64,000 nt of DNA from Mobula birostris (GCF_030028105.1 NC_092393.1:29985248-30049247); one strand, 5' to 3'. Numbered from the stretch's first letter, positions 53,347 through 59,300 are shown. Translations and numbers: made by a program. The notes: a model not told the origin generated them from the sequence alone.

Positions 53347-56300
53347 GTAGGCGGAGCGGCGTTGAGAAAGCTGGGGAGAGGGCAGGGTGAGCGTGGAAGT
53401 CGGGGGGGGGTTTGCTGCAGTCGCGGTGCCGCCTACGCACCGGGTCACCGTCGGCTCCTGATCGACGCGCCGTGTCCCGGGCCGGGCTCTGCGCGCATCC
53501 AGTGCGCATGCCTGGGCCCGCTCATCCGGCCGGCCCGGTGGAGCGAGTCGCTCCCGTGACCGGCGGGAGCGGTGCTGTAACGTTCAGCTACCGCGCAGGC
53601 AGTCACCGCTCCTTTCTACAGAGAGGGTTCTTCTTCGCAGCTCAGCATTGATGTAACGTGTCAAAATTTGCATCTACCGCACGGGTCAGCAGTTTAGTCG
53701 GGGGTTGTTCCGTCTGTGCCCTTCGACAATCGTTCGCAGGTCTCCATTGCACTTACCTGACTACAAGGGTCAAAAATGAGCACTGCTTTAGTCACAACCC
53801 CTGATGCTGCACAGGTCAGATTGCTAGAGGTCATAAAAGGTCAGCGCTGTACATTGCTCCGTGTCATAAATGAACGTGCAATGGCTGCAGAATATCTTTA
53901 TATTTGTCTCTTGCAGGGTTTCTTGGTCATCATCCTTGTCAAAGGTCATCACTGCATCCATGTGCAGATTGGTTTTGCTGCATCAGCAGTAATGTGTGTA
54001 TTCATCGATCAGGGGTGCAGTGCTAATTTTTTAGGTGCCAGAGCTGACAAAATGTTTGCCATTTCCTATATCTTCTTTATATACAGTGGCATGCAAAAGT
54101 TTTGGCAAGATTTCTGTTACTGTGAATAGCTAAGCGGGTAAAAGATGAACTGATTTCCAAAAGGCGTAAAGTTAAAGATGACACATTTCCTTAATATTTT
54201 AAGCAAGAAAACTCTTTTAGTTCCATCTTTTACAGTTTCAAAATAACAAAGAAGGAAAAGGGCCCGAAGCAAAAGTTTGGGCACTCTGCATGCTCAGTAC
54301 TTAGTAACACCCCCTTTAGCAATTATCACAGCTTGTAAATGCATTTTGTAGCCAGCTAAGAGTCTTTCAATTCTTGTTTGGGGGATTTGTGCCCATTCTT
54401 CCTTGCAAAAGGCTTCTAGTTCTGTGAGATTCTTGGGCCGTTTTGCATGCACACTGCTCTTTTGAGGTCTATCCGCAGATTCTCAATGATTCTCGGTCAG
54501 GGGACTGTGAGGGCCATGGCAAAACCTTCTGCTTGCGCCTCTTGAGGTATTCCATTGTGGATTTTGAGGTGTGTTTAGGATCATTATCCTGTTGTAGAAG
54601 CCATCTTCTTTTCATCTTCGGCTTTTTTGCAGTTCTATTCAAAAGGTTCAAAGTAACATCTGAACAAGCCTGATGCATTTTGGAAATAAGTCCTGTGGAC
54701 TGATGAAATTAAAATAGAACTTTTTGGCTGCAATGAGCAACGGTATGTTTAGAGAAAAAAGGGTGCAGAATTTCATGAAAAGAACCCCTCTGTAACTGTT
54801 AAGCACGGGGGTGGATCGATCATGCTTTGGGCTCGTGTTGCAGCCAGTGGCACGGGGAACATTTACTGGTAGAGGGAAGAATGAATTCAATTAATTCTGG
54901 AAGCAAACATCACACCGTATGTAAAAAAAAAAAAGCCAAAGATGAAAAGAGGATGGCTTCTACAACAGGATAATGATCCTAAACCCACCTCAAAATCCAC
55001 AATGGACTACCTCAAGAGGCGCAAGTTGAAGGTTTTGCCATGGCCCTCACAGTCCCCTGACCGAGAATCTGTGGATAGATCTCAAAAGAGCAGTGCATAC
55101 AAGACAGCCCAAGAATATCTCAGAACTAGAAGCCTTTTGCAAGGAAGAATGGGTGAAAATCCCCCAAACAAGAATTGAAAGACTCTTAGCTGGCTGCAAA
55201 AAGCATTTACAAGCTGTGATACTTGCCAAAGGGGGTGTTACTGACCATCCAGGGTGCCCAAACTTTTGCTTCAGGCCCTTTTCCTTTTTTGTTATTTTGA
55301 AACTGTCAAAGATGGAAATAAAAATTTTTCTTGATTAAAATATTAAAGAAATGTGTCATCTTTAACTTTATACCTTTTGGAAATCAGTTCATCTTTTACT
55401 TGCTTAGCTATTCACAGTGACAGAAATTTTGACCGGGGTGCCCAAACTTTTGCATGCTACTGTATATGTCACACTCAATTTGTGTACCTGCACATTTCAT
55501 GTACTGGGCAACTTCCCTGTCCCATTCATGTAATGAGCAGGTACACAAATTGGGTGAAATATATATGACAAGGTACTGCACGGTTGCACTCACTAATTAT
55601 CATAAAATATAATTATCAAGCAAGTAAAGAAAAAGACGGTAATCATGTATTTTACCAATTTAAAAGTAATTACCTACTTAGCAAATGCCACCAATGAGAA
55701 GTTTCACAATAATTTCCACAAAGGGTCAGGTGTAATATGTGTTCGGGGGTCTGGAGCAACTCTTGTCCTGGTGTCATCTGCTGACATACGCCTCAGGATT
55801 CCACTGAACTAGAGGAGGTCCATGTAGTTTTACAAACATAAGTGCTGATACATGATTTATGAGAATTCTTGAGTGTGTTGTTGTTGCTATCAAGCTCATA
55901 TGACTGAATCCTCTCTCACACTCAGCAGTACTAATAGAATAACTTGTGAACAGCTCAGTAATGGGCGTAAATCTTGGGGGATGTGGCGTCCACAGTCCTC
56001 CGCATAATCTCTGAAGGCATTTATCACAGAGGAAGAAGAAAGCTTAAACCTCTTACAGAGACATGATATTGCAGCTTCTCCATAATTAGGCGGTATTTCA
56101 GCAGGCCAGTTATCTTTATCAAGGACACACATTTCATTTAGCAGGGATTTGTACAGACTTTGAAGTTTAGAAGTTTAAGAACCTTTCAAGGATGTTGCCG
56201 TGAACTTACGGTGCTGCAAATTGTTTATAAGACTAGTAAGACACTAGATAATTAATGGAGACAATTTTGTTGTTGCTTGTTAAGGTAATTTCTCCAAACT

Positions 56301-59300
56301 TCCTCTTTTCAACTGCCTCTTGAGCTTCTAGAGTTTTTGTACCAGGTTGCTCTTTCAGTCCATGCAGTGATCTTATGCTCCGTTGGATCAGTTTGCCTGC
56401 ATAAACGACCGTAGTAGTGCGTTTCTGTAAACACCCTGACAGTAAACCAAGTTCATGCAACGTGTCATACATTAGGGCTAAGTCCAACAGAAACTGTTCT
56501 GAAGAGAGTCTTTTTAACAGACCTTCAGGTGTTTTTCTGTCACTCCCAGATCTTGTTTCATTCTTCATTGCTTTTTTGAAATGAAAACACAGTGCTTCAT
56601 AATTTTGCCACACTGCTGAAACTGTTTGAAACAAGCTAGCTACCCACCTGGTGCCCAGAACACGGCCTATTTTGCAAATTTCTTGCTCTAGTTGAGAGGC
56701 ACATTCAGACAGTTCCTTTTGATGTAGAGGTTATCTACTGTAAACAGAGTACAATTTGTCTATAAATGATTGAAAATGATTTATTCCATGAACTCTCACC
56801 GAATCACCTACTGCAAGTTCTAATCTGTGGTTAAGACAATGCCAAATTATCACATCAAATTATCCTTGAGAATTGTAGCAACACCAGATTTGACACCAAG
56901 TATTACGCTCGCCCCATCACTAGCAAATGCTGTTAGGCTCTGTTTCAAGTAAGAGTCATCAAACCCATGGTTATTGAGACAGTTCAATAGATGCTCAGCA
57001 GTAATTGCAGCCTTCTGATCAGGCAGTTCAATTAGATCTAAAAACATAAAATGGGGATCACGTTCCTTATCACTTTCACATTTCAAATAAACTATTAGGG
57101 AAGTCTTAATGCTCAGACTTGTTGAGTCATCAATGAGAACAGAAAATTTGCCATTTATCTGCTTGATATGCTGGCAAATTTTCTTTTTCATATTAATGGT
57201 TATGTGATTAATTATCTCAGCACTAGTGTGGGAATGCTGTCCAATTCCAATGTCAATACCATTTTTTTAAACGTTCCAATAAGACAAAGTGATCAGAGTA
57301 TGGTCTGTCATTTTGAGCTAAATAATATGCAGAACGAAAAATTGACAAGTTGCCTTTCTTTAGATGTGAAGCATTCATGGTGTCACATAATTTTCCAAGA
57401 GCATCTTCACTAGCTACATTTTCAACACTTAGAGCAGCAGTGTGAGCTTTTGATAGTTCGTGATCAACAATTTTTTTTCTGAGAGACTTCAAGCGTGTAC
57501 TTCGATCGGCTCCATAATAGGATACTTGGTACATCTGCCATGCCAATTCTCCTGTGATCTTTAAGTTCTGGAGGTTGTAGTGCTTTACATAGCTAGCCAG
57601 CCATCCCTTACTAGCCTTAATCTCCTTCCTCTTGCTCTCCTCAACCCCCTCACAGTAGTGCTCATAGAGGCTAAGTGCTTTTTCACACATAATATTGTCA
57701 TCAACAGGGATATGCTTCTGTGACATGTCCTCTAGCTACACACTTAATGCTTTCTCAGTCTCTGCGAGCACTTTATCACGAACCAGAGAGACCATTTTTG
57801 CTGTTGTAGGGGTAGCACTAACACTTCCACGAACTTCAGCTTCTTTCTCCTTTATTGTGCAAATGCTCGATTCATTCCTCCTGACCTTACAGCCCACTTC
57901 GGCAAATGACACGCCACTTTTCAAAAGATCTAAGGTTTTTATTTTCTCAGCGAACAATGCTCAAACAACAAGTGCTGGAGAGAGACTGAGGATCTGTGAA
58001 ATGGCGGGAGGCTACAGCAGGGTTTGCTGGGACAACGGGTCGAGCGAGAAGGAATTTCACAAAACAGTCACAGCTCCAGGATTTCACCAAAAACGATCAA
58101 ATATCCTAATGTTATTAGTGGTATTTTCCCCACCAATTAGTGGTATTTTCCCCTCTCCCCAACACCCGCTTCCGTAAAATTCCCTCTATTTAATATGCGG
58201 CCGCTGTTAAATTCCCCGCTTGTTTATTTTGACTTTTTTTAACAGAGGTGCCAGACTGGTGCGCCAGTGAGCTCCGGCTGCACCGCACCCCTGGCTGCAC
58301 CCTACCGTTATTTGTGGAGGCTTGCATGTCAGAACAGTGATGTTCACAGGTCATTACAAGTGAGTGACTACTGTAGAGGTTTACAGTGGATTCACCAGTA
58401 TTGTTTTTTTATTAGCATATGATATAGGAGCAGAATTAAGCCACTTGGCCCATGGAGTGTGCTCAATCTGCAAATTAACCTTTAGGGAATCCTGCATGGG
58501 GACACCAATGAGTTTTGATTTTTTTCTCCATTTAGATAATAGTCTATGCTTCATTTCTTCTCCTGAAGTGCATTACTTTGCTGACACTATATTCCATCTG
58601 CTACTTCTTTACACATTCTCCTAAGCTGTCTTAGTCCTTCTGCAGCCTCTCTGGTTCCTCAACACTACCTGCCCCTCCACCTGTCTTTGTATCATCCACA
58701 AACTTGGCCACAAAGCCATCAATTCCATCATCCAAATCATCGACATGTAACATAAAAAGAAGCAGTCCCACCACAGACCCCTGTTGAACACCACTAGTCA
58801 CTGGCAGCCTAGCAGAAAAGGCTCCCTTTATTCCCACTCTTTGCCTCCTGCCAATCAGCCAATGCTCCAACCATGCTAGTATCTTTCCTGTAATACCATG
58901 TGCTCTTAACTTAAGCAGCCTCATGTGTGGCACCTTGTCAAAGGCCTTCTGAAAATCCAAGTACACAACATACACTGATTCTCCTTTGTCTATCCTGCTT
59001 GTTATTTCTTAAAAGAATTCCAACAGATTTGTCAGGCAATATTTTCCCTTAAGGAAATCATGTTGACTTTGGCCTATTTTATCATGTGCCTCCAAGTACC
59101 CTGAAACTACATCCTTATCTACATCTTTCCAGTCACTGAAGTCAGACTAACTGGCCTTTAATTGACTTTCTCCTGTCTCTCTCTCTCCTCGGAGTGACAT
59201 CTGCAATTTTCCAGTCCTCAAGAACCATGCCAGAATATTGATTCTTCAAAAATCATTACTGATGCCTCCACAATCTCTTCAGCCACCTCTTCAAGAACCT

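What the first reader, a model, noticed from the sequence alone, without database searches (positions are those of the whole stretch)
55700..58293. Chimeric DNA transposon: Tigger CENP-B DNA-binding module fused in frame to an hAT transposase
Seen: inside one pair of hAT TIRs (54010 and 58293), the minus-strand frame 57957->57253 encodes both Tigger/pogo HTH domains. It is broken only by a single TAG where Tigger has W (ALSV*LEDMSQK). It then passes without a frameshift from ...NLKITGE into [35 protein letters not shown], which is KIAA1586-like hAT sequence, followed by the hAT DDE core. The junction bases (GGAGAATTGGCATGGCAGATG) can be read both as Tigger GE(S)A(S)AD and as hAT W-x-x-Y, which suggests microhomology. 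No Tigger TIR or TA boundary is visible. Known: Tc1/mariner-pogo and hAT are separate superfamilies with different DNA-binding domains. Inference: either a cross-superfamily domain swap that was once mobile as a family, or a one-off capture during gap repair.
Basis: partly seen in the sequence, partly recalled or inferred. Interest (0 to 1): 0.72.

Follow-up and report, generated by a model that had tools for sequence, protein, structure and literature searches.

The report
Jumping gene carrying another's DNA-binding piece
This is one of dozens of dead copies of a jumping gene in which a deletion joined a stranded piece of an unrelated jumping gene, in frame, to its own enzyme gene; the copies were likely moved by intact relatives rather than by a working hybrid enzyme.

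Summary
The junction is real and multi-copy: 36 exact junction matches in G000, roughly 80-110 copies, with distinct 8-bp TSDs. It is not a designed-looking domain swap. The intermediates are in the genome:
- a Tigger derivative nested at a TA in the 5' non-coding region of a KIAA1586-like hAT (L170, L176, L121);
- a sister type keeping its own start and zinc finger, with an intact 742-aa consensus ORF;
- about a dozen deletion types with different right breakpoints.
The window type is the commonest. Its deletion, at a 2-bp microhomology, removes the hAT start and the CxxC half of the finger; the Tigger start was already lost. An out-of-frame twin junction has 4 copies. Copy pairs with different flanks share stops and frameshifts (omega 1.04), so copies likely moved in trans. 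Still open: the family reference, with an unstable A-run set to its in-frame length, has a 748-aa fused ORF from the element's first ATG, and the in-frame join outnumbers its twin 36:2. The scan noted a similar element in another genome (e1-9399189), without copy data.

The parts
58280..58293 (-). hAT left terminal inverted repeat (14 bp); no TSD in this copy
58028..58293 (-). hAT left end, non-coding; lacks a 14-nt stretch at about 58060 that most native-start copies have
57949..58027 (-). Tigger 5' non-coding fragment (free Tigger positions 133-211); Tigger left TIR lost
57949..57953 (-). 5-bp microhomology at which the Tigger ATG and first 25 codons were deleted
57541..57953 (-). Tigger HTH-coding fragment (truncated CENP-B_N plus HTH_Tnp_Tc5); the family's first ATG maps to 57912 (GTG in this copy); TAG at 57736-57738
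57540..57541 (-). In-frame Tigger/hAT deletion junction; 2-bp exact microhomology inside an imperfect 10-11-bp one
55704..57540 (-). KIAA1586-like hAT transposase from the conserved W onward: HxxxxxH half-finger (57465), DDE motifs near 57137, 56924 and 55926, dimerisation region; decayed
57262..57272 (-). Length-unstable A-run; frameshifted here and in most copies of this type
55463..55565 (.). About 100-bp TA-flanked hairpin in the 3' non-coding part, shared by the family; probably another nested MITE (inference)
54084..55462 (.). Copy-specific nested Tc1 derivative with long inverted arms, flanked by TA
54010..54083 (-). hAT right end with TIR at 54010-54023

Best explanation
This is one of dozens of dead copies of a 3.1-kb hAT element in which an internal deletion joined a nested Tigger fragment in frame to the hAT transposase, and the copies were likely mobilised in trans by sister elements with the intact transposase. 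STEPS. (1) Shown by surviving copies: a Tigger derivative (HTH region plus 3' end, no DDE) sits at a TA in the hAT 5' non-coding region, upstream of the hAT ATG. Its left TIR and own ATG are gone, so it likely could not excise and rode along. (2) Shown: many internal deletions with different right breakpoints each gave further copies. (3) Shown: the window type joins Tigger to the hAT W codon at an AT microhomology. This removes the Tigger 3' end, about 900 bp of hAT non-coding DNA, the hAT ATG and about 118 N-terminal residues, including the CxxC. (4) Inferred: the deletions arose during repair of excision gaps, and the frame match is chance (one in three). (5) Inferred: the transposase came from the type that keeps its own ATG and has an intact 742-aa consensus ORF.
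For: Missing-link copies carry hAT end + Tigger HTH + Tigger 3' TIR + TA + hAT non-coding DNA (L170/L190, L176/L191); L121 keeps the Tigger 3' end. A free full-length Tigger of the same family exists, about 95% identical to the fragment (L141). Of 48 native-N-terminus loci examined, 42 show Tigger DNA upstream; the other 6 are deleted or truncated across that region. The 14-copy 'A314' type has an unbroken 742-aa consensus ORF with CxxC and the same age: 3.4% vs 3.3% non-CpG divergence. In 30 loci picked by the left junction alone, 13 were the window type and 17 were other structures. An out-of-frame twin junction occurs in 4 copies: L013, L148, L150, L171. Non-coding types are multi-copy with TSDs. 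Eight same-contig copy pairs share mutations along the element; L008/L011 share a stop and a 1-nt deletion, and L022/L083 share a stop. Shared changes are 91 N, 2 stop, 33 S, omega 1.04. The A-run is in frame in 18 of 52 readable window-type copies vs 10 of 11 A314 copies. No Tigger TIR is left for the HTH to bind. Hermes needs its N-terminal 78 aa in vivo (PMC10368747, passages).
Against: The window type is the largest single class: 36 exact hits vs 19 for all native-start types and 2 for the out-of-frame twin. With the A-run at its in-frame length, the reference has a 748-aa ORF from the element's first ATG, with D, D and E motifs present. Interrupted A-runs are longer on the whole than pure ones, which suggests the founder was in frame. 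Transposase acts in trans, so omega near 1 is expected even in families with a working enzyme; it shows that copies did not need their own ORF, not that the founder's protein was dead. Finger-truncated Tgf2 keeps 21-25% gene transfer vs 56% (PMC4890040, abstract). Shared changes in pairs could partly be gene conversion; L013/L098 and L093/L125 are mosaics.
Confidence: 0.8

Rival explanations
1. The deletion created a working hybrid transposase. The hAT promoter drove a 748-aa protein in which Tigger HTHs replace the lost half zinc finger, perhaps as non-specific DNA binders, and this helped the type become the commonest.
For: In-frame join; no ATG upstream of the in-frame one; catalytic motifs present; 36:2 excess over the out-of-frame twin; the long leader with 9 upstream ATGs is removed; truncated Tgf2 is partly active (PMC4890040, abstract).
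Against: Starting at Tigger residue 39 drops 22 of the 52 residues that match CENP-B_N. There is no Tigger TIR to bind. The A-run is out of frame in 34 of 52 copies. Dead copies share lesions across different flanks. There are no fixed changes suggesting adaptation against sister types or free Tigger. The abundance excess rests on one in-frame/out-of-frame comparison; of 5 Tigger-to-hAT coding joins seen, 3 are in frame, one of them uncertain.
Confidence: 0.12
2. The fused protein was made and dimerised with native transposase, acting as a modulator or dominant-negative rather than as a mobiliser.
For: The ORF keeps the hAT core and C-terminal dimerisation region but lacks the intact finger. 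Truncated repressor forms are known for other DNA transposons (recalled, e.g. P-element KP).
Against: No sign of constraint: omega about 1 and 0 of 55 copies intact. No expression data.
Confidence: 0.06
3. One-off capture during gap repair at this locus, or an assembly chimera.
For: This copy lacks a TSD.
Against: At least 55 further copies at separate loci share the junction; 29 of 34 with both ends read have TSDs with at most 2 mismatches, and all 34 left flanks differ.
Confidence: 0.01

Closest known systems
KIAA1586-like hAT transposases (database name; Latimeria P0029/P0007)
   Same: 76% identical over the 635-aa aligned stretch of the reference; CAG-starting TIRs, 8-bp TSDs, D/D/E and CxxH motifs
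   Different: The window type lacks the native start and the CxxC and carries Tigger HTH DNA there
Tigger/pogo transposase (P0004; free copy L141)
   Same: Donor of the HTH region, about 95% DNA identity
   Different: No ATG, DDE_1 domain, TIRs or TA TSD in the window type
Microhomology-mediated deletion families from one autonomous element (Ozma to Gnome, Elf, Goblin; PMC3814204, abstract); Ac/Ds derivatives (recalled)
   Same: Several non-autonomous families from one parent, with breakpoints at microhomologies
   Different: Here the parent already held a foreign element, so one deletion yields an in-frame cross-superfamily ORF and keeps the catalytic core
Composite DNA transposons with foreign cargo: MER6 with a V-SINE domain (PMC6887750, abstract); multicopy Pack-TIRs (PMC8277862, passages)
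   Same: A foreign fragment amplified as a passenger inside TIRs
   Different: The cargo is another DNA transposon's DNA-binding coding region; it entered by ordinary TA insertion and is fused in frame

Membership tests
hAT superfamily | Short TIRs | tested here: met
   14-bp TIR at both ends
hAT superfamily | 8-bp TSD | tested here: met
   29 of 34 copies with at most 2 mismatches; 4 more look offset by 1 nt; the window copy has none
hAT superfamily | DDE core with CxxH and C-terminal dimerisation region | tested here: met
   Motifs in the reference; 76% to Latimeria P0029; Dimer_Tnp_hAT only E=0.009, below cut-off, in the decayed window piece
Autonomous hAT | Intact N-terminal zinc finger and own start | tested here: not met
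   ATG and CxxC deleted in this type; present in the A314 type
Autonomous hAT | Intact ORF | tested here: inconclusive
   0 of 55 copies intact; majority consensus frameshifted; 748 aa open if the A-run has its in-frame length
Autonomous hAT | Transposase activity | not testable with these tools
   Needs a cell assay
Tigger/pogo | CENP-B-type HTH domains | tested here: inconclusive
   HTH_Tnp_Tc5 met; CENP-B_N truncated and not detected
Tigger/pogo | DDE_1 domain, own TIRs, TA TSD | tested here: not met
   Absent in this type; 3' TIR + TA survive only in sister types
Non-autonomous composite deletion derivative | Parent ends kept, internal deletion at microhomology, multi-copy, intact parent type of the same age | tested here: met
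Non-autonomous composite deletion derivative | Moves without its own enzyme | tested here: inconclusive
   Pairs share stops and frameshifts; conversion is not excluded, and the founder's activity is untested

The most novel reading that the evidence does not exclude
A natural cross-superfamily transposase: Tigger/CENP-B HTHs fused to a finger-less hAT core, translated from the element's first ATG and active enough to make this the commonest form of the family.
Probability: 0.12. Interest if true: 0.75.

Novelty: new variant of a known kind. Interest (0 to 1): 0.33.

Why it matters
As best explained, it is a well-resolved example of how nesting plus microhomology deletion can create an in-frame ORF between two transposon superfamilies and spread it passively. 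All intermediates are present in one genome, and the case warns against reading an in-frame multi-copy join as function. If the fused protein worked, it would show that a hAT catalytic core can run on a foreign DNA-binding module, which matters for how new transposase architectures arise and for engineering. I found no paper describing such a family: the KIAA1586 + transposase + hAT search gave 0 papers, and searches listed none. These searches cover only the open library; Repbase and Dfam entries could not be checked.

Tried and rejected
PDB sequence search with P0001: no hit at E<=1. Protein search for longer relatives gave 8 hits, none with this Tigger + KIAA1586-like join; the tool calls such a blank weak evidence. 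Other species: two raw-read runs laid 0 reads; contigs of organisms B and C cover all 30 bins, but no listed piece bridges the junction by 31 bases on both sides, so its presence there is not shown. Tree of 90 copies: star-like apart from small groups, so it cannot fix the founder's A-run length. Rejected: a 1-bp deletion selected to restore frame from the out-of-frame twin; the in-frame join differs from the twin at two places, both matching native hAT, so a separate crossover or conversion fits better. Rejected: that Tigger-free parents are common; none was clearly seen, and L105 and L106 look like deletions across the site. Literature search returned mostly irrelevant papers. No structure or complex prediction was run.

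Full report
OBSERVATION. The element lies on the minus strand from 58293 to 54010, between 14-bp TIRs. A Tc1 derivative is nested at 54084-55462. Frame 57957->57256 reads Tigger HTH, one TAG at 57738, then passes without a shift into KIAA1586-like sequence. Pfam finds HTH_Tnp_Tc5 (E=1.5e-5) but not CENP-B_N. The frame then shifts at an A-run near 57265 before the DDE core. This copy has no TSD, 9 listed indels and at least 3 stops.

IT IS A FAMILY. A DNA search of G000 scored 40 of 1381 candidates and returned about 30 other near-full-length copies at 87-91% identity. An exact 27-base junction pattern gave 36 hits, with 0 for the control. That pattern matches 10 of 30 copies and, by my count, 6 of 13 from an independent sample, so there are roughly 80-110 copies. 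Of 34 copies with both ends read, 29 have 8-bp TSDs with at most 2 mismatches, and all 34 left flanks differ. The junction has the in-frame length in 51 of 55 window-type copies; 1 has a 3-nt deletion and 3 were unreadable. Mean non-CpG divergence from consensus is 3.3%.

PARENTS. A search with the N-terminus of a coelacanth relative gave 62 matches; I examined 48 of these loci. They have the native start, a CxxC, and the same core at 99% consensus identity. Of the 48, 42 also show Tigger DNA upstream of their own ATG; 6 are deleted or truncated there. A free full-length Tigger with TIRs, ATG and DDE is in the genome and matches the fragment at about 95% (L141). Against it, the fragment consists of Tigger positions 133-211 and 326-740. 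The Tigger left TIR is lost, and its ATG was deleted at a 5-bp microhomology.

HISTORY. L170 and L176 read: hAT left end, Tigger 133-211, 326-790, 2005-about 2220 (3' end; TIR and TA in L170), then hAT non-coding DNA. So a DDE-less Tigger derivative was nested in the hAT 5' non-coding region. A possible intron there is read from sequence look only. No single copy was found with this long insert plus the native ATG and full core, so that master is inferred. Deletion types with native start: A314 (14 copies), C617 (9), E324 (7), B612 (4), D431 (4), G330 (2), other (8). There are further types without a coding core. The A314 consensus has an unbroken 742-aa ORF and the same divergence, 3.4%, so it is the likely transposase source. 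In 30 of 54 loci picked by the left junction alone (the pattern excludes A314), 13 were the window type.

THE JUNCTION. Tigger and native hAT share an imperfect 10-11-bp similarity. The window type crosses at an AT and is in frame; a twin crosses a few bases later and is out of frame (L013, L148, L150, L171). Exact-pattern counts are 36 in-frame, 2 twin and 19 native. Three other Tigger-to-hAT coding joins were seen: 429 nt deleted, in frame (2 copies); 311 nt, out of frame; about 489 nt, apparently in frame.

WAS A HYBRID ENZYME MADE? For: the reference has no ATG before position 376, which is in frame. With the A-run at its in-frame length, the ORF is 748 aa with D, D and E motifs. Interrupted runs tend to be longer, hinting that the founder was in frame. 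Finger-truncated Tgf2 retains 21-25% vs 56% gene transfer (PMC4890040, abstract). Against: that ATG is Tigger residue 39, so 22 of the 52 residues matching CENP-B_N are lost. The CxxC is gone, and Hermes needs its first 78 residues in vivo (PMC10368747, passages). No Tigger TIR remains to bind. The A-run is in frame in 18 of 52 readable copies vs 10 of 11 in A314, whereas a control A8 run keeps its length in 38 of 53. No copy of 55 is intact. Eight related pairs lie on the same contig, have different flanks where read, and share changes spread along the element. L008/L011 share a stop and a frameshift; L022/L083 share a stop. Shared changes are 91 N, 2 stop, 33 S: omega 1.04 (rough 95% range 0.7-1.55, my hand estimate). 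Limits: one of the eight pairs is in-frame/twin, conversion may explain some sharing, and omega near 1 is expected whenever enzyme is supplied in trans, so this does not prove the founder's protein was inactive.

MECHANISM. Shown: nesting, multiple deletions, multi-copy spread, loss of both native starts and half the finger. Inferred: deletions made in gap repair at microhomologies (as in PMC3814204, abstract; PMC8277862, passages), a chance frame match, and mobilisation by A314-type transposase. Confidence 0.8. Working hybrid 0.12; modulator 0.06.

COMPARISON AND NOVELTY. By its ends, TSD and core it is a hAT; it fails the tests for Tigger membership and for an intact hAT finger. It works like known composite non-autonomous elements such as MER6 (PMC6887750, abstract) and multicopy Pack-TIRs, but the cargo is another superfamily's DNA-binding region fused in frame. 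Searches listed no description of such a family; passages of PMC5753468 gave no direct precedent. No supplements were read. My data agree that a working enzyme is unlikely, but show that the structure was copied many times and began as a nested insertion. Its presence in other species and its expression remain unshown.

VERDICT. Real, multi-copy, mechanistically explained; a new variant of a known kind; interest 0.33.

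Noticed in passing
P0002, P0003, P0011, P0024, P0026: Predicted GTF2I/GTF2IRD2-like genes of Mobula, Hemitrygon and Hypanus begin with about 180 residues of this same Tigger family (with its ATG and both HTHs), fused to GTF2I repeats and a hAT-derived domain. 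This is a candidate host-transposase fusion kept in three ray genera; it rests on gene predictions and selection was not tested.
   Followed up: partly
window 54084-55462: Nested Tc1 derivative whose two arms are 91-96% complementary in blocks over about 500 bp; both carry the transposase C-terminal end.
   Followed up: partly
L101, L109, L119, L124 near the right end: An about 210-bp TA-flanked MITE (mariner-like by its ends, recalled) sits in the same TA run where the window copy has its Tc1; the master collected several TA-targeting passengers.
   Followed up: partly
Pairs L008/L011, L012/L014, L004/L010, L005/L099, L089/L090, L013/L098, L022/L083, L081/L082: All 8 related pairs lie on the same contig, 0.2-5.3 Mb apart, consistent with local hopping of already mutated copies.
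   Followed up: yes
window 55704-57540 vs P0029: The transposase is 76% identical to intact coelacanth hAT proteins; high for a transposon across that distance, so horizontal transfer is possible.
   Followed up: no
window 58294-58307: The left flank repeats 9 bases of the element's own end and there is no TSD; this copy's left end may have been rearranged.
   Followed up: no
L031-L060: Abundant short Tigger derivatives with mosaic internal deletions that keep parts of the HTH coding region; 95 exact pattern hits.
   Followed up: partly
window 58480-59000: Reverse-transcriptase-like fragment of a LINE (CR1/L2-like by recalled motifs) on the minus strand beside the element.
   Followed up: no
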